64,000 nucleotides of DNA, taken from the sequence record PZ496580.1. The stretch is one strand, 5' to 3'. The notes beneath the pieces are model-generated. The model saw only the letters and a program-made list of their open reading frames with translations. It was not told the origin of the DNA and searched no databases. Of this stretch, positions 8,881-47,791 are shown piece by piece (position 1 is the stretch's first letter; the number at the start of each line of letters is the position of its first letter). Made by a program: the position numbers and the translations under genes. This DNA is from a phage.

Positions 8881-8912
8881 TTTGATTCTCCGTTTGTTGT
8901 CTTGATGGGAGT

Positions 8913-8941
8913 ATCTTACTACTCCCTTTAATCATTGTCAA
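8913..8941 (-). promoter_or_regulatory. sigma70-type early promoter cassette
   Basis: approx; TTGACA-17-TAAGAT; -10 embedded in GGGAGTAGTAAGATACTCCC palindrome. Confidence 0.45.
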
Positions 8942-18120: not shown

Positions 18121-18161
18121 CTTGATACTCCTTAGTAAGTGTGTTTCGTTTCGATGGGGGT

Positions 18162-18190
18162 ATATTACTACCCCCGTTTCATGCTGTCAA
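18162..18190 (-). promoter_or_regulatory. sigma70-type early promoter cassette
   Basis: approx; TTGACA-17-TAATAT with GGGGGTAGTAATATACCCCC palindrome over -10. Confidence 0.45.
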
Positions 18191-18409: not shown

Positions 18410-18442
18410 TTTGATTCTCCTTTGTTTCGTTTCGATGGGAGT

Positions 18443-18471
18443 ATCTTACTACCCCCGTTATTCAGTGTCAA
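18443..18471 (-). promoter_or_regulatory. sigma70-type early promoter cassette
   Basis: approx; TTGACA-17-TAAGAT. Confidence 0.45.
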
Positions 18472-40291: not shown

Positions 40292-40948
40292 ATGCAAGTT
40301 TCTGAAAAAGAGAAAGACTTTGCTATCTCAAATGTCCTGCGCGCTATTTTCACAACTAAAAGCACGGAGTTGCTCGTACTTCGTGTTTTTGCTGCCGTCG
40401 TGTTGTCCATATTAGCATTTGTCGTTTATAGTAAAAACGAGTTATTTGCGCTTTATAAAGAGACTCGTTATGAGACTTATGCTCACGTTCTCCAGGTAGA
40501 GAAAGACCGCAATTTTGATAATGCAGCACAGGAGCAGTTACAGATAGTTCATGTGTCGGCTGATGCCGATTTTTCTGCTGTTTTTAGTTTTCGTCCGAAA
40601 AACCTAAACTATTTTGTTGATTTGGTGGCATATGAAGGAAAGCTACCGCATACGATCGATGAAAAGAATTTAGGCGGATTCCCTATCAATAAAACGAGTG
40701 AAGAATATCGTAGGCATCTTTTAGGTAAATCCTATTTTACTGATAAAGATTTCCAGTATATTCCATCGAGGGAGAAAAAATTAGAGAATATCGATATAGG
40801 ATTCATGTATTCTTGTCCTATATTCAATCTCGATAATGTCTATTCTGGTAGTATCGCCATTGCATGGAAGAATAAACCGGATATTGACATTGAGAATTTA
40901 GATACTCTTTGCAATCAATCTGCCAGAATCCTCGGAAGGATTAGATAA
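40292..40948 (+). CDS. t: holin
   Basis: 218 aa; collinear with T4 holin T (LEQLQIVH.S.EADFSAVYSFRPKNLNYFVD..AYEGKLP...ARILGR). Confidence 0.9.
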   Translation: MQVSEKEKDFAISNVLRAIFTTKSTELLVLRVFAAVVLSILAFVVYSKNELFALYKETRYETYAHVLQVEKDRNFDNAAQEQLQIVHVSADADFSAVFSFRPKNLNYFVDLVAYEGKLPHTIDEKNLGGFPINKTSEEYRRHLLGKSYFTDKDFQYIPSREKKLENIDIGFMYSCPIFNLDNVYSGSIAIAWKNKPDIDIENLDTLCNQSARILGRIR

Positions 40949-42864: not shown

Positions 42865-43164
42865 TTATTTTCGGTTGTGGTCACGATATGTTTTAAAATA
42901 TCCCTCGTACCACGGTAAAACATCTGGATTTTTACCACTATACAGACTTTTAACCATCATGTCAATAAGACCGTCCGGTGTTTGATAATTACCAGCTTTT
43001 ATAAGCTCTCTGATTAAAATCTCTCTGTATATGTCTTTAGGATCTTCGTAATCAACTTGTATTGTGGTTGTTGTCTCGCTTAATTTGGTTTCTGGGGTAT
43101 CTTGCATCGCCTTCCACCAATCTTTTGTAATCTTCATGCTGTTGAATTTCATAATTATCTGCAC
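42865..43164 (-). CDS. hypothetical protein (99 aa)
   Basis: ORF track; overlaps upstream gene by 10 nt. Confidence 0.4.
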   Translation of the reverse strand: MQIIMKFNSMKITKDWWKAMQDTPETKLSETTTTIQVDYEDPKDIYREILIRELIKAGNYQTPDGLIDMMVKSLYSGKNPDVLPWYEGYFKTYRDHNRK

Positions 43165-43925
43165 CCGTACTGGTCAACATAGATTTTAGAGTATCCTTGT
43201 TCGCGGACTTCTAAGCGAATGATATCGCTATCCTGTTCACGCCACACATAATACTTTTTATTTTCTTTCCAGCCGCTAAAAACGATCATTCCGTTGTCAT
43301 CAACTACTCGTTTTGTGTTTGCCTTATGCACATCATTATTGTCGATGTATGTAAAATGGATAATCTGACCATCTTTTACTTTCAGAGTCAATTCACCTGG
43401 ATTGTACTCTTTATAAAATGGCTGTGCTTTCGGCTTAGTGTTTGCTCCGTCGATATTTTTCCATTTAAAGTGAGATTCACATTGCAAGGTAAACTCGCTG
43501 GTTTGTGGTTTCTTTTCTTTCTTCGGTTGCTCTACCACTTTTTCTTCCTGTTTCGGTTGTTGTTCTTCGTCAACCTTAACGGAAGTCTCTGAATCGCTTT
43601 CTGACGCGGTTTCTTCTTTAGGTAATACATTCATCAAGTTTTGAATTTGAGCGTTATATACAGCCTCCAGTGGCTGAATCTGCCCGATATTGATCATAGT
43701 ATCACGAACAGTTTTATTCCAGTTGCGTTGCTCTTGTTTCAGAGACGGATCAATCTTAACAGCCTTAACATACACCTCATGAAGTTTCGAATCCAGTGCG
43801 GAGATTGACTCATTAGCACAAATAAACTTCTCTGATTTGGTAGTAGCTTTAGCGCAATCAAAGGACGCAGCATTGGCACCGAAAGCAGTAGCGGAAAGAA
43901 CGATAGCAGCGATAATGTTTTTCAT
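43155..43925 (-). CDS. secreted protein with LprI/DUF1311-like N-terminal domain
   Basis: 256 aa; signal peptide MKNIIAAIVLSATAFGANA; FDCAKATT.EK.IC....ALD..L...Y......EQRNWNK.VRD resembles lysozyme-inhibitor LprI family; Lys/Glu-rich linker. Confidence 0.45.
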   Translation of the reverse strand: MKNIIAAIVLSATAFGANAASFDCAKATTKSEKFICANESISALDSKLHEVYVKAVKIDPSLKQEQRNWNKTVRDTMINIGQIQPLEAVYNAQIQNLMNVLPKEETASESDSETSVKVDEEQQPKQEEKVVEQPKKEKKPQTSEFTLQCESHFKWKNIDGANTKPKAQPFYKEYNPGELTLKVKDGQIIHFTYIDNNDVHKANTKRVVDDNGMIVFSGWKENKKYYVWREQDSDIIRLEVREQGYSKIYVDQYGCR

Positions 43926-43959
43926 AATATATTCCTCAATGTTTTGTCTTGATGGGAGT

Positions 43960-43988
43960 ATCTTACTACTCCCTTAATCCGGTGTCAA
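43960..43988 (-). promoter_or_regulatory. sigma70-type early promoter cassette
   Basis: approx; TTGACA-17-TAAGAT. Confidence 0.45.
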
Positions 43989-44433: not shown

Positions 44434-44462
44434 GTGATTCTCCTTTTGTTTGGTATGGGAGT

Positions 44463-44491
44463 ATGTTACTACTCCCTTATCTTTACGTCAA
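44463..44491 (-). promoter_or_regulatory. sigma70-type early promoter cassette
   Basis: approx; TTGACG-17-TAACAT. Confidence 0.4.
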
Positions 44492-44498
44492 CTAGTTT

Positions 44499-44741
44499 TT
44501 AGAAATTTTTCGCTTCTTCTTCGGTCATCATAACCGCGCATTCGTGCATAACTTTGAAAACCGGATCAATCATGTCGAATGCTTCGCGAGACAATTTACG
44601 AGAAGCGATTTTGATTGCTTCATCGTCTTCGACTACAGGAACAAAAACAGTTTTCAGTTCATCGAGAATGGCAGCTTCTTTTTCATTCAGGAAGATACCA
44701 GCGTCATACAGTGCAACTTCGATAACATTAACTTTAACCAT
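44499..44741 (-). CDS. hypothetical acidic protein (80 aa)
   Basis: ORF track. Confidence 0.45.
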   Translation of the reverse strand: MVKVNVIEVALYDAGIFLNEKEAAILDELKTVFVPVVEDDEAIKIASRKLSREAFDMIDPVFKVMHECAVMMTEEEAKNF

Positions 44742-44774
44742 TTTAATTCCTCCAGTTCGTTTCGGTATGGGAGT

Positions 44775-44803
44775 ATAATACTACCGATGACCTTTGGCGT
44801 CAA
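44775..44803 (-). promoter_or_regulatory. sigma70-type early promoter cassette
   Basis: approx; TTGACG-17-TATTAT. Confidence 0.4.
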
Positions 44804-45005
44804 CTGCTTTTTTATTATTTTCGTGAAAATTTTTCGTCGCCTCATGTGCTTTTCGCTGGGCTTCTTGTTGTGCTTGCTGGCGTGCTGCCTCTTGCGATGC
44901 CATAACAGACGCATTTGCAGCAGTTACAGCCGCGACCATCGCTGCGGTATTGGCATTTACAGTACATGCGCTCGCCAACAAAGCAATCGCAATCATTTTC
45001 TTCAT
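44781..45005 (-). CDS. small secreted protein (signal peptide, Ala/Gln-rich)
   Basis: 74 aa; MKKMIAIALLASACTVNA signal-like N-terminus. Confidence 0.4.
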   Translation of the reverse strand: MKKMIAIALLASACTVNANTAAMVAAVTAANASVMASQEAARQQAQQEAQRKAHEATKNFHENNKKAVDAKGHR

Positions 45006-45172
45006 AGTTTCCCCTTTATGTTATCTTCGACCTTCATCCATTCCGCGTATTCTTGCGCGGCTACTTTCGGATTTAGTCCGTCTTCGTACATTGCTTCAAG
45101 TAATTCTTCGTCGGTGGGCTTATACCCTAGATAAGCCTCCACCTGATTTTTCCAAATTTTATACCAGTTCAT
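45002..45172 (-). CDS. hypothetical protein
   Basis: track ORF trimmed to MNWYKIW. Confidence 0.35.
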   Translation of the reverse strand: MNWYKIWKNQVEAYLGYKPTDEELLEAMYEDGLNPKVAAQEYAEWMKVEDNIKGKL

Positions 45173-45449: not shown

Positions 45450-45480
45450 CTTTGATTCTCCTTTCGTTTGGTGTGGGAGT

Positions 45481-45510
45481 ATGTTACTACTCCCATTATT
45501 CAGTGTCAAT
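45481..45510 (-). promoter_or_regulatory. sigma70-type early promoter cassette
   Basis: approx; TTGACA-18-TAACAT. Confidence 0.35.
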
Positions 45511-46228: not shown

Positions 46229-46433
46229 GTTTTACCCCCTCTGATAATTCTTTCATCCAATAATCTATCGTTGCTCTGTGTTCTGGTGTGTTTGTTATCC
46301 CTGCGAACTTGTTCAGAGATTCAATATTGATCCGGTTGGCTTCTTCCATAGTCTCAACGACCATTGGTACAATCTTTTCATTGTTGTACACGAAAGCCAC
46401 ATAACCACCTACGGGATATTCTTTCATAATCAA
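46221..46433 (-). CDS. hypothetical protein (70 aa)
   Basis: ORF track; coupled overlaps with both neighbours. Confidence 0.4.
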   Translation of the reverse strand: MIMKEYPVGGYVAFVYNNEKIVPMVVETMEEANRINIESLNKFAGITNTPEHRATIDYWMKELSEGVKHD

Positions 46434-47791
46434 CCCTTCTTAAGTTCTTTAAGATCCTTCTTATATTCCTTCATTGCGGTCGTCTTTGTCCAATACTCAT
46501 ATTCACTATGATGTTTATCGGCATCTTTGACCAGTCGATCATACTCTTCTTGAGTAACGCTATACAATGGCATAGAAACGAGCTTATCGGCGTATGAACG
46601 CAGTTTTTCATGTCCATTGATGGATTGCATTACCTCGGCCTTTTTCTTTCCCTGTAGCTCGATTTCGCCCTTAATTACGCGATCGATAAATTCGGCTTTA
46701 GCCATTGCATAATTGTATGCTTCCAGCGTTTCCGCTTGCATCAATTCAATGCGTTTATCGACATACCATAAGCGGATTTCGACGAATCGACGAATCAGGT
46801 CGCTAGCTTTCTCGAATACTTCAACTAAACCACGTTCATTAACCACTACGATATTCTGGGCTACTAACTGCGTTAGTTTAAAATCCTTCATGATTTGCTC
46901 ATGTCGAGCGGATTCATCTTCGCTTTTGAAATAATCGCGTTTCAGTGTTACTTCAAATCTAAATCCATCCTTAGAGCAACGGTCATTATATGAGACAATC
47001 AGATCTTTTTCTTCCAGTGCATCCAGTACCGCTACATATTCTTCACGGTCGAACTTATAAGGAACTTCTGATATTGTCAGTTTAGTCTTGCCGTTTAGTT
47101 CATATGTACCCTCAAGAATGACACCATCGCGGTCATCACGCGGGATAACTTTACCGGTGAATTTTGGGAATTGAACACTAGGTTCTTTATCCAGTTTTCC
47201 GGCAAGTGCTAGCTCTGTGCATTCAATGAGGCTTTCCAGTGAATGCGGTAAAATGTCAGTTTTATACCCTGTAGCAATACCACTAATACCATTAGCCAAT
47301 ACCATTGGCACAACTGGCAAGTAGAACGCTGGCGGGATGTGTTCCAGATCTTCGTGCTTAGGTGCGCAATTCATATCTTTATAGATTTTAAAGAAGTTTT
47401 CATGCACACGAGCAAAGATATAACGTGCCGCGCCTGCTTTCTGGACTAAACGCGAACCGAAGTTACCTTGACCGTCAAGCAGTGGAGTATTATTGCTCCA
47501 TGTATTCGCCATGAGTGATCCGGCTTCTACGGCATTAGTTTCGCCGTGGTGATACCCCAATTCAGCAACACCAGATCCAATATCTGCCATCTTACGGAAT
47601 TTCTTACGGTCGCCTTTACTCTTTTGCAAAGCACATTCCATAACAAAGCGTTGCACTGGTTTAAGCCCATCCACTAATTGAGGAATCCCGCGTTCCTCGG
47701 CAGAATAGATCGCATATTCCTTAGCTTCATTATGTACAATGCTTTCAAGGCTGCGGTAAGTAACTGATTTATTCATCTTCACCTCATACAC
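46430..47791 (-). CDS. 52: DNA topoisomerase II medium subunit
   Basis: 453 aa; GyrA-like DGLKPVQR motif and catalytic Tyr region. Confidence 0.85.
   Translation of the reverse strand: MYEVKMNKSVTYRSLESIVHNEAKEYAIYSAEERGIPQLVDGLKPVQRFVMECALQKSKGDRKKFRKMADIGSGVAELGYHHGETNAVEAGSLMANTWSNNTPLLDGQGNFGSRLVQKAGAARYIFARVHENFFKIYKDMNCAPKHEDLEHIPPAFYLPVVPMVLANGISGIATGYKTDILPHSLESLIECTELALAGKLDKEPSVQFPKFTGKVIPRDDRDGVILEGTYELNGKTKLTISEVPYKFDREEYVAVLDALEEKDLIVSYNDRCSKDGFRFEVTLKRDYFKSEDESARHEQIMKDFKLTQLVAQNIVVVNERGLVEVFEKASDLIRRFVEIRLWYVDKRIELMQAETLEAYNYAMAKAEFIDRVIKGEIELQGKKKAEVMQSINGHEKLRSYADKLVSMPLYSVTQEEYDRLVKDADKHHSEYEYWTKTTAMKEYKKDLKELKKG

What the first reader, a model, noticed from the sequence alone, without database searches (positions are those of the whole stretch)
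43155..43925. Secreted LprI/DUF1311-like protein, candidate periplasmic lysozyme inhibitor
The 256-aa ORF has a typical signal peptide, an N-terminal Cys-containing domain resembling the LprI/DUF1311 lysozyme-inhibitor family, a Lys/Glu-rich linker and a C-terminal globular part. T4 uses a periplasmic protein (spackle) to inhibit the tail lysozyme of superinfecting phage; this unrelated-looking protein could have an analogous superinfection-exclusion or lysis-timing role.
Basis: partly seen in the sequence, partly recalled or inferred. Interest (0 to 1): 0.6.

Follow-up and report, generated by a model that had tools for sequence, protein, structure and literature searches.

The report
Secreted phage protein with swappable barrel
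An RB49-type E. coli phage encodes a real secreted protein with an almost invariant LprI/DUF1311-like front half and an interchangeable beta-barrel back half that is also traded with an E. coli prophage; it probably binds something in the cell envelope, but "lysozyme inhibitor" is only a family name so far.

Summary
The ORF is real: minus strand, 43155..43925, 256 aa, the ortholog of RB49p262 in a Krischvirus early-gene block. The described anatomy holds. It has a Sec signal peptide (1-19), a DUF1311/LprI module (Pfam PF07007, 25.3 bits against a cut-off of 22, but only profile positions 1-71 of 106 and without the family's third and fourth cysteines), a disordered E/K/Q/P linker, and a confidently modelled C-terminal domain.

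New findings:
- The C-domain is a small 8-stranded beta-barrel framed by two invariant cysteines.
- It is a swappable cassette. The N-module is about 96% identical across the family (dN/dS mostly 0-0.07). C-domain alleles fall into at least 8 classes, down to about 10% identity, with saturated synonymous sites. The replaced segment against RB49 is exactly 43157-43520.
- The same alleles sit in a prophage inserted in hicB in 26 of 5426 complete E. coli genomes.
- The allele does not track the phage's own tail-fibre tip.

The "lysozyme inhibitor" reading is name-based. The literature read here credits the MliC domain, not DUF1311, and the barrel fails every MliC sequence test. The most likely role is a periplasmic binding or neutralising protein (exclusion or immunity) with allele-specific targets. 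That function is untested.

The parts
43155..43925 (-). Complete ORF (256 codons plus TAA stop); ortholog of RB49p262 / UniProt Q7Y3G7
   Evidence: ORF list. RB49 and UPWr_E1 annotation. PHROG 14799, E = 1.5e-119. BFVD top hit is RB49 Q7Y3G7.
43869..43925 (-). Sec-type signal peptide, residues 1-19 (MKNIIAAIVLSATAFGANA, predicted cleavage ANA|AS)
   Evidence: Sequence. Hydropathy 2.5 over residues 4-15. pLDDT below 50 over residues 1-20. The same signal peptide and AASFDC junction occur in homologs from Klebsiella, Aeromonas and SSU5 phages.
43620..43868 (-). Conserved N-module, residues 20-102: truncated DUF1311/LprI-like helical domain with Cys24 and Cys36
   Evidence: Pfam PF07007, 25.3 bits against GA 22, profile positions 1-71 of 106. 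Four helices, pLDDT 64-81. Mean 96% pairwise identity among 18 cluster representatives. dN/dS 0-0.07 at dS about 0.2.
43503..43619 (-). Disordered E/K/Q/P-rich linker, residues 103-141; holds the 5' recombination breakpoint of the cassette
   Evidence: Composition. pLDDT below 50 over residues 104-137. Homology to RB49 ends at 43521.
43158..43502 (-). Hypervariable C-terminal domain, residues 142-256: 8-stranded up-and-down beta-barrel with invariant Cys149 (first strand) and Cys255 (last strand)
43157..43520 (-). Cassette segment with no DNA homology to RB49 (allele replacement); 100% identical to phage UPWr_E1
   Evidence: blastn boundaries and sliding identity. Zero differences from UPWr_E1 in the C-domain while the N-domain has dS 0.22.
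43954..43988 (-). PeSL-type cassette directly upstream: sigma70 promoter TTGACA-17-TAAGAT (43988->43960) overlapping the hairpin GGGAGTA-n6-TACTCCC (43954-43973)
   Evidence: Promoter scan, 10 of 12 matches. The hairpin occurs 6 times in the window against 0.01 expected. PeSLs are described for RB49 and phi1 as strong early promoters plus terminators (PMC2839356).
43932..43937 (-). Shine-Dalgarno GAGGAA, 6 nt before the ATG
   Evidence: Read from the sequence.
42865..43152 (-). Downstream gene (95 aa, RB49p261 homolog, PHROG 15915, unknown function), starting 3 nt after the stop codon. Its 5' end is the 3' homology arm of the cassette, and about 75 nt of it persist next to the prophage copies
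   Evidence: ORF list and sequence. PHROG hit. Window 43080-43156 matches L005 and L006 downstream of the prophage gene.

Best explanation
SHOWN. This is an expressed-looking phage gene, placed behind a PeSL sigma70 early promoter, that encodes a Sec-exported periplasmic protein of three parts:
1. An almost invariant, truncated DUF1311/LprI-like helical N-module.
2. A disordered, charged linker.
3. An 8-stranded beta-barrel framed by two invariant cysteines.

The barrel is a polymorphic cassette. There are at least 8 ancient allele classes, all on the same N-module. Alleles are exchanged by homologous recombination, using the N-module and linker as one arm and the start of the downstream gene as the other. 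Exchange occurs among virulent Krischviruses and between them and a temperate prophage inserted in E. coli hicB, where the gene is the last gene before the attachment junction (a 'moron' position).

INFERRED. The protein acts in the periplasm as a binding or neutralising factor that protects the infected cell or lysogen from envelope-attacking proteins arriving from outside. Candidates are cell-wall hydrolases of superinfecting phages, or lysozyme-like bacteriocin or T6SS effectors. In this model the conserved N-module supplies a common activity: binding a conserved partner such as a muramidase or lytic transglycosylase, or peptidoglycan itself, as reported for other DUF1311 proteins. The barrel supplies allele-specific recognition of a variable target. 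In effect it would be an exclusion or immunity protein with interchangeable specificity.
For: - Gene reality, export signal and domains.
- Early promoter and PeSL: and PMC2839356.
- Invariant N-module against hypervariable C-domain.
- Selection: N-domain dN/dS 0-0.07, while synonymous sites between C-domain alleles are saturated (pS 0.65-0.87).
- Recent swap: the window and UPWr_E1 have identical C-domain DNA, yet their N-domains differ at dS 0.22.
- Cassette boundaries: 43157-43520.
- Same fold in the most divergent allele.
- Prophage copies: 26 of 5426 E. coli genomes, at the hicB junction, with three different alleles and a downstream terminator-like hairpin.
- The same N-module, fused to unrelated C-termini, occurs in Klebsiella and Aeromonas T4-like phages, SSU5 and a lambdoid early-left operon.
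- DUF1311 proteins act as immunity to periplasmic cell-wall effectors: Etsi4 rescues Etse4 toxicity (PMC12981562), with predicted pairs in PMC9796082, PMC8867033 and PMC12135965.
- ScwA, a periplasmic DUF1311 protein, controls levels of the lytic transglycosylase MltD (PMC7933661).
- The small soluble barrel resembles PhiA, PliC and ACP in size and build.
Against: - There is no functional datum for this protein or any ortholog, and no partner has been identified.
- No effector or hydrolase gene lies next to it, unlike T6SS immunity genes.
- The N-module has no direct similarity to Etsi4 (hhalign probability 2.5%), and Etsi4 itself scores below the Pfam cut-off.
- Saturated synonymous sites mean positive selection cannot be demonstrated. 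Variation is not concentrated in loops (entropy 1.29 in strands against 1.43 elsewhere).
- There is no PADLOC hit.
- Promoter scans are consensus matches only. In the prophage the promoter candidate is weak (9 of 12) and no better than chance.
Confidence: 0.4

Rival explanations
1. A classical proteinaceous lysozyme inhibitor. The barrel (and/or the DUF1311 module) plugs the active site of a lysozyme. The specific target would be the gp5 tail lysozyme of superinfecting T-even phages, so the protein would be a functional analogue of T4 Spackle, or would tune the phage's own endolysin.
For: - The layout mirrors M. tuberculosis LprI, which is DUF1311 + MliC (PMC7933661).
- The cysteines sit in the first and last strands, as in E. 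coli MliC (YQC...NNC). ACP is described as a barrel stabilised by a disulphide bond (abstract of PMC5507604).
- There is no Spackle homolog in the syntenic 41-61 interval of RB49 or in this window.
Against: - No MliC Pfam hit for any of 12 alleles.
- hhalign of the C-domain profile against E. coli MliC gives 1.8% probability.
- The MliC loops seen in E. coli MliC (SASGARY and WSKGDEA) have no counterpart here.
- A profile search of the PDB finds no inhibitor.
- Extreme allelic diversity is not what one would expect for a fairly conserved target such as a T-even tail lysozyme (my inference; gp5 diversity was not examined here).
- Phage Marfa has both Spackle and a DUF1311 N-module protein.
- Purified PhiA failed to inhibit SagA in vitro (PMC8334348), so even that structural neighbour is not a secure inhibitor.
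- DUF1311-only ScwA gave no lysozyme resistance.
Confidence: 0.17
2. A ligand-binding calycin. The barrel would bind a lipid or a lipid-linked envelope intermediate, for example undecaprenyl-linked O-antigen or ECA units, or lysophospholipids. That would alter the cell surface, in the way seroconversion genes placed next to prophage attachment sites do. Allelic diversity would then track host glycan diversity.
For: - The prophage copy sits at the attachment junction, where conversion genes typically lie.
- The allele is uncoupled from the phage's own tail fibre.
Against: - All these matches are weak and generic (Foldseek E >= 8e-3).
- The domain is smaller than lipocalins. Its lowest-rmsd neighbours are compact barrels of about 90-146 residues (PhiA, PagL, ACP, the HpuA C-terminal barrel and a designed barrel; rmsd 2.5-3.0 A).
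- A surface-conversion function has no obvious benefit for a virulent phage early in infection (inference).
Confidence: 0.12
3. A regulator of host cell-wall enzymes or of lysis timing. The DUF1311 module would modulate a host lytic transglycosylase or autolysin (as ScwA does for MltD), or would interact with the periplasmic domain of the T holin encoded 2.2 kb away. Either would stabilise the infected cell's wall or tune lysis.
For: - ScwA is a periplasmic DUF1311 protein that raises MltD levels, and its overproduction causes lysis (PMC7933661).
- The N-module is extremely conserved, as expected for a conserved host target.
- The holin gene t is nearby, at 40292..40948.
Against: - This does not explain the hypervariable, swappable barrel.
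- No T-type holin gene is annotated in the prophage stretches examined.
- Nearness to t simply reflects conserved T-even gene order.
Confidence: 0.1
4. A receptor-masking exclusion protein of the T5 Llp or Cor type. The barrel would bind the periplasmic side of the outer-membrane receptor used by the phage itself and so block related phages.
For: It is a periplasmic, early-expressed and lysogen-carried protein with a variable binding domain. The gene lies only about 3 kb from the distal tail-fibre gene.
Against: - Tested by co-variation. The phages whose gp37 tip is closest to the window's (Sf20 95%, FL37 93%, Delraymugoa and Aragogtheria 89%, W115 88%) all carry the RB49-type barrel, which is only 36.5% identical to the window's.
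- UPWr_E1, the only phage with the window's barrel (100% identical), is not among the 60 best tip matches listed (lowest listed 53%).
- Phages carrying the Phi1-type allele have tips in the same identity range as RB49-type phages.
- The protein is not a lipoprotein: it has no canonical lipobox.
Confidence: 0.05

Closest known systems
M. tuberculosis lipoprotein LprI (Rv1541c): DUF1311 + MliC
   Same: Exported. N-terminal DUF1311 module followed by a small beta-barrel domain, so the order of fold types is the same (architecture of LprI from PMC7933661).
   Different: LprI is a lipoprotein with a bona fide MliC domain. Here there is a plain Sec signal, a truncated 2-Cys DUF1311 (profile positions 1-71 of 106), a long disordered linker, and a barrel with no detectable MliC homology. 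The barrel here is hypervariable.
MliC/PliC family, Brucella PhiA and Neisseria ACP (small periplasmic 8-stranded-barrel lysozyme inhibitors)
   Different: No sequence or profile similarity, and the MliC active-site-plugging loops are absent. Generic barrels score equally well. Purified PhiA did not inhibit its proposed target in vitro (PMC8334348).
[not shown]
   Same: Signal-peptide-bearing DUF1311 proteins that act in the periplasm against cell-wall-targeting proteins (PMC12981562, PMC9796082, PMC8867033, PMC12135965).
   Different: Those are single-domain proteins encoded next to their effector. This one has no adjacent effector, carries an extra barrel domain, and shows no direct similarity to Etsi4.
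Salmonella ScwA (periplasmic DUF1311 protein controlling MltD)
   Same: A soluble periplasmic protein with a DUF1311 domain and functionally important disulfides (PMC7933661).
   Different: In ScwA the DUF1311 domain is C-terminal within an all-helical 275-aa protein, with four cysteines. It has no barrel, is not phage-borne and is not polymorphic.
T4 Spackle (gp61.3), periplasmic inhibitor of the gp5 tail lysozyme
   Same: An early, signal-peptide-bearing periplasmic protein of a T-even-type phage. RB49 lacks a Spackle homolog at the syntenic site.
   Different: No sequence similarity: tblastn with the Marfa Spackle gives only a 13-aa, E = 7 match inside the ORF. The size and domain structure differ. 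Marfa encodes both proteins.
PeSL + ORFan cassettes of RB49/phi1 hyperplastic regions
   Same: The gene sits directly behind a PeSL (promoter plus GGGAGTA...TACTCCC hairpin) in a hyperplastic early block (PMC2839356, PMC4122927).
   Different: PeSL shuffling moves whole ORFans. Here the exchanged unit is half a gene, with one breakpoint inside the coding sequence in the linker.

Membership tests
Pfam PF07007 LprI / DUF1311 | Profile match at or above the curated gathering score | tested here: met
   25.3 bits for the full protein and 26.2 bits for the isolated N-domain, against GA 22; E = 1-2e-5. The same holds for the prophage allele P0019 and for the Marfa, CC2 and SSU5 homologs.
Pfam PF07007 LprI / DUF1311 | Full-length domain with the family's four conserved cysteines | tested here: not met
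   The match covers profile positions 1-71/72 of 106 only. Cys24 and Cys36 are present. The Cys pair that the distant homolog P0021 keeps (RNKCPDAEC) is replaced by RDTMINIGQIQ.
Pfam PF07007 LprI / DUF1311 | Exported (signal peptide) helical domain | tested here: met
   [not shown]
Pfam PF07007 LprI / DUF1311 | Lysozyme-inhibiting activity implied by the family name | not testable with these tools
   This needs biochemistry. The literature read here says the label lacks experimental support for the DUF1311 domain itself (PMC7933661).
MliC/PliC lysozyme inhibitors (PF09864) | Sequence or profile homology to the family | tested here: not met
   No PF09864 hit for the window C-domain or for any of 12 alleles at E <= 10. 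hhalign of profile A2 against E. coli MliC gives probability 1.8%. A profile search of the PDB finds no inhibitor.
MliC/PliC lysozyme inhibitors (PF09864) | Conserved lysozyme-binding loops (SxSGAxY and YxxxS/TKG; the motif definitions are from memory, and the loops are seen in E. coli MliC as SASGARY and WSKGDEA) | tested here: not met
   The E. coli MliC sequence was retrieved. No equivalent motifs are conserved across the allele alignment, where only C, G and C are invariant.
MliC/PliC lysozyme inhibitors (PF09864) | Small 8-stranded antiparallel barrel with cysteines in the terminal strands | tested here: met
   [not shown]
T4 Spackle (Sp, gp61.3) | Sequence homology to Sp | tested here: not met
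   tblastn of the Marfa Spackle against the window finds only chance matches (E >= 2.1); the one inside the ORF is 13 aa at E = 7.2.
T4 Spackle (Sp, gp61.3) | Inhibition of the gp5 tail lysozyme and exclusion of superinfecting T-even phages | not testable with these tools
   This needs plating and enzyme assays.
T6SS effector-immunity pair (DUF1311 immunity) | Encoded adjacent to a cognate periplasm-acting effector | tested here: not met
   In the phage the neighbours are small hypothetical proteins. In the prophage they are the hicB remnant and hypothetical proteins.
T6SS effector-immunity pair (DUF1311 immunity) | Close relationship to a validated immunity protein (Etsi4) | tested here: not met
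   hhalign of the N-module profile against ECs_0213 (taken as Etsi4 from its position downstream of hcp1) gives probability 2.5%.
PeSL-associated early gene of RB49-type phages | Sigma70-like promoter plus conserved stem-loop immediately upstream | tested here: met
   TTGACA-17-TAAGAT at 43988->43960 and hairpin at 43954-43973. Definition from PMC2839356.

The most novel reading that the evidence does not exclude
This would be a new kind of polymorphic periplasmic specificity locus in phages. A constant, exported DUF1311 'handle' carries interchangeable disulfide-locked barrel cassettes, each of which neutralises a different incoming envelope-attacking protein: a rival phage's cell-wall hydrolase or entry protein, or a bacterial T6SS or bacteriocin toxin. 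Alleles would be kept as a balanced polymorphism and traded between virulent T-even-type phages and resident prophages by recombination. A lytic phage would thereby pick up new exclusion or immunity specificities from the lysogens it infects.
Probability: 0.25. Interest if true: 0.75.

Novelty: new variant of a known kind. Interest (0 to 1): 0.5.

Why it matters
Krischviruses (RB49-type phages) are common therapy and model phages, yet their periplasmic proteins are uncharacterised. RB49 also has no recognisable Spackle at the usual position.

A secreted protein with a frozen N-module and ancient, freely swapped C-terminal alleles looks like a gene caught in a long-running conflict. If the barrel alleles confer allele-specific exclusion or toxin immunity, this would be:
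- a new class of phage-encoded envelope defence;
- a clear case of virulent and temperate phages sharing a functional cassette;
- a first functional handle on the DUF1311 'LprI' domain, whose database name currently overstates what is known.

Practically, it warns against propagating the 'lysozyme inhibitor' label for these phage proteins.

Tried and rejected
1. Receptor-masking (Llp/Cor-like) model: rejected, because the barrel allele does not co-vary with the gp37 tail-fibre tip.
2. MliC membership of the barrel: rejected on Pfam, hhalign and PDB-profile tests.
3. Remote homologs of the barrel: HMMER against 1.84 billion representatives found only the family itself, plus two internally repetitive proteins (P0022, P0023) whose scores are summed over repeats and are spurious.
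4. Foldseek against the PDB gave no hit at E <= 1e-3. BFVD gave only uncharacterised phage barrels and lipoproteins. The afdb50 library was not available.
5. PADLOC: no hit for the window protein, and a marginal E = 0.004 hit for P0019 that I disregard. NCBIfam: nothing.
6. Direct kinship with the validated DUF1311 immunity protein Etsi4: none.
7. Positive selection on the barrel could not be assessed, because synonymous sites are saturated. Variation is not concentrated in loops and shows no alternating-face pattern.
8. A foreign origin of the cassette by base composition: GC 0.39 against 0.41 for the window, so no signal.
9. Literature searches for functional work on RB49p262 or on prophage LprI genes found none. 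The only mention is the 2006 table listing RB49ORF260c with a weak DUF1311 match, E = 0.2; I assume this is the same gene under another numbering.
10. Spackle was searched only in the window and in RB49 9-36 kb. The rest of the RB49 genome was not searched.
Full report
**Observation.** The window is a Krischvirus (RB49-like, Straboviridae) genome segment: megablast of 42800-44300 matches 59 phage records at 90-99% identity. A 256-aa ORF lies at 43155..43925 on the minus strand. It is the ortholog of RB49p262 and sits in the leftward early-gene block between the holin gene t (40292..40948) and topoisomerase gene 52 (46430..47791). A GAGGAA Shine-Dalgarno lies 6 nt before the ATG. A sigma70-type promoter (TTGACA-17-TAAGAT, 43988->43960) overlaps a GGGAGTA-n6-TACTCCC hairpin. 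That hairpin occurs six times in the window against 0.01 expected. It corresponds to the published PeSL (promoter-early stem-loop) cassettes of RB49/phi1 hyperplastic regions (PMC2839356). The next gene (95 aa, PHROG 15915) starts 3 nt after the stop codon.

**Anatomy.**
- Residues 1-19 form a typical Sec signal peptide (MKNIIAAIVLSATAFGANA|AS) without a canonical lipobox.
- Residues 24-76 match Pfam PF07007 (LprI/DUF1311) at 25.3 bits (GA 22, E = 2e-5), but only over profile positions 1-71 of 106. Only the first two of the family's four cysteines are present. The distant homolog P0021 keeps all four.
- AlphaFold2 with an 18-sequence alignment gives four helices (residues 30-100, pLDDT 64-81), a disordered linker (residues 104-137, pLDDT below 50; 10 E, 8 K and 5 Q among the 39 residues 103-141), and an all-beta domain (residues 142-255) at pLDDT about 90.

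At the sequence level the domain is an orphan:
- no Pfam family for any of 12 alleles;
- no PDB relative by profile search;
- only its own family among 1.84 billion representative proteins, the two other hits being repeat artefacts.

I retrieved E. coli mliC to test the MliC idea directly. hhalign probability is 1.8%, and the MliC loops (SASGARY and WSKGDEA in E. coli) have no counterpart. What is shared is the general build, plus cysteines in the first and last strands (YQC...NNC in MliC; LQC...YGC here). Those two cysteines are invariant in every allele.

**The main new finding: a constant N-module with a swappable barrel.** Among 18 cluster representatives the N-module (residues 1-102) is on average 96% identical. 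The C-domains fall into at least 8 classes in two deep clades, with 10-23% identity between clades.
- The most divergent allele (P0019) still models confidently with the same strand order, so the alleles are versions of one fold.
- Nei-Gojobori estimates give dN/dS of 0-0.07 at dS about 0.2 for the N-module in most pairs. Synonymous sites between C-domain alleles are saturated (pS 0.65-0.87). The alleles are therefore old lineages rather than a recent burst.
- The window and phage UPWr_E1 have C-domains identical at every nucleotide, while their N-modules differ at dS 0.22. That is a recent exchange with a breakpoint inside the gene.
- Against RB49 the non-homologous segment is exactly 43157-43520, from the end of the linker to the stop codon.
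- Among isolated Krischviruses only three alleles occur: the window type (window and UPWr_E1), the RB49 type (about 45 records) and the Phi1/GEC-3S type (about 11 records). Further alleles come from metagenomes and E. coli genomes.
- Cassette GC content equals that of its surroundings.

**Sharing with a temperate prophage.** 26 of 5426 complete E. coli genomes carry a copy whose N-module is 90-94% identical at the DNA level. In the three loci examined it is the last gene of a prophage inserted into hicB. It is transcribed towards the junction and followed by a strong terminator-like hairpin, which is a typical moron arrangement. These prophages carry at least three different barrel alleles at the same site. 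About 75 nt downstream of the gene are homologous to the 5' end of the Krischvirus downstream gene. That suggests the prophage copy derives from a Krischvirus-like phage. It also provides a second homology arm, so cassettes could be exchanged when such a phage infects a lysogen (inference). The PeSL paper notes that T4-type recombination needs patches of less than 50 bp.

**Wider family.** The same signal-peptide + AASFDC + truncated DUF1311 module, fused through a charged linker to unrelated C-termini, occurs in Klebsiella Marfavirus-type phages, Aeromonas T4-like phages and SSU5. A 116-aa secreted DUF1311 protein sits in the early-left operon of a lambdoid prophage. More distant relatives are ordinary single-domain secreted DUF1311 proteins of Proteobacteria.

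**What DUF1311 is known to do.**
- M. tuberculosis LprI is DUF1311 + MliC. The ScwA study attributes lysozyme inhibition to MliC, found no lysozyme phenotype for periplasmic DUF1311-only ScwA, showed that ScwA controls the lytic transglycosylase MltD, and notes that the Pfam label lacks experimental support (PMC7933661).
- Independently, DUF1311 proteins appear as immunity partners of periplasm-acting cell-wall effectors. Etsi4 rescues Etse4 toxicity in E. coli O157 (PMC12981562). Predicted pairs exist in Pantoea, Salmonella Dublin and WHIX loci.
- The phage N-module is not close to Etsi4 (hhalign 2.5%; Etsi4 itself scores 18.7 bits, below GA).
- PhiA, the best low-rmsd neighbour of the barrel, failed to inhibit its proposed target in vitro (PMC8334348).

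**Tests of specific models.**
- Receptor masking predicts that the barrel allele follows the phage's own receptor-binding protein. It does not. The gp37 tips closest to the window's (Sf20 95%, FL37 93%, Delraymugoa and Aragogtheria 89%, W115 88%) belong to phages with the RB49-type barrel. UPWr_E1, with the window-type barrel, is not among the 60 best tip matches listed. Phi1-type phages overlap RB49-type phages in tip identity.
- A Spackle-replacement role gets mild support, because RB49 has no Spackle homolog in its 41-61 interval. It is weakened because Marfa has both proteins.
- No defence-system model matches.

**Interpretation.** The shown facts are: an exported two-domain protein; an early-type promoter; strong constraint on the N-module; ancient, recombining barrel alleles; and presence at a prophage moron site. 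They fit best a periplasmic binding or neutralising protein involved in conflict with agents arriving from outside the cell. The barrel would provide allele-specific recognition, and the DUF1311 module a common function, such as engaging a muramidase or transglycosylase-type partner or peptidoglycan. I give this 0.4.

The rivals are:
- the narrower classical lysozyme-inhibitor / Spackle-analogue reading, 0.17;
- a ligand-binding calycin affecting surface glycans or lipids, 0.12;
- a regulator of host wall enzymes or lysis timing, 0.10;
- receptor masking, 0.05.

The remainder is unassigned.

**Novelty.** The gene is already in databases as a hypothetical or 'LprI-like N-terminal domain-containing' protein, and its weak DUF1311 similarity was tabulated in 2006. 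What appears new is the barrel fold, the intragenic cassette polymorphism, the exchange between virulent and temperate phages, and the demonstration that the 'lysozyme inhibitor' label is not backed by the diagnostic MliC features. I rate it a new variant of a known kind, with interest 0.5.

Noticed in passing
window 8907-8926, 18156-18175, 18437-18456, 43954-43973, 44457-44476, 45475-45494: Six copies of the hairpin GGGAGTA-n6-TACTCCC (0.01 expected by chance). The copies at 43954 and 44457 overlap the -10 element of sigma70-like promoters. These match the PeSL promoter/terminator cassettes described for RB49 and phi1.
   Followed up: partly
window 44513-45014: This segment has no counterpart in RB49 or UPWr_E1 and is flanked by PeSL-like repeats. 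It holds two ORFans on the minus strand: 44499..44741 (80 aa) and 44781..45005 (74 aa). The second starts MKKMIAIALLASAC..., which looks like a signal or lipoprotein peptide. Neither has a PHROG hit. This may be another secreted accessory protein in the same early block.
   Followed up: partly
L005 14760-15000 and L006 14517-14594 (E. coli prophage at hicB): Downstream of the prophage copy lies a remnant of about 75 nt that is homologous to the 5' end of the Krischvirus gene following the ORF (window 43080-43156). This suggests gene flow from a virulent T-even-type phage into a temperate prophage. The prophage insertion truncates hicB.
   Followed up: partly
L013 (RB49 9000-36000): RB49 has no annotated or detectable Spackle (61.3) between genes 61 and 41, and no imm or gene 42 between uvsX and 43. 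The slot holds dc1, dc2, gp61.1 and two tiny ORFs, one of which (RB49p018) looks like a small membrane protein.
   Followed up: partly
L007 3501-4259 (Klebsiella phage Marfa), L008 3495-4214 (Aeromonas phage CC2), L009 3501-4199 (Salmonella phage SSU5), L011 6001-6351 (lambdoid E. coli prophage): Other phages encode proteins with the same signal peptide + AASFDC + truncated DUF1311 N-module. In Marfa, CC2 and SSU5 a charged linker joins it to an unrelated C-terminal region. In the lambdoid prophage it is a 116-aa single-domain protein in the early-left operon. The C-terminal regions were not characterised.
   Followed up: no
L012 4066-6327 (Xenorhabdus hominickii chromosome): A 108-aa DUF1311 protein is encoded immediately after two unannotated ORFs (454 and 159 aa), the second abutting it. 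This may be an effector-immunity-like arrangement.
   Followed up: no
L014 1873-4014 (E. coli O157:H7 Sakai T6SS cluster): ECs_0213, which I take to be the published immunity protein Etsi4 from its position after hcp1, scores only 18.7 bits on Pfam LprI, below the gathering score of 22. Its DUF1311 assignment is itself marginal at the sequence level.
   Followed up: partly
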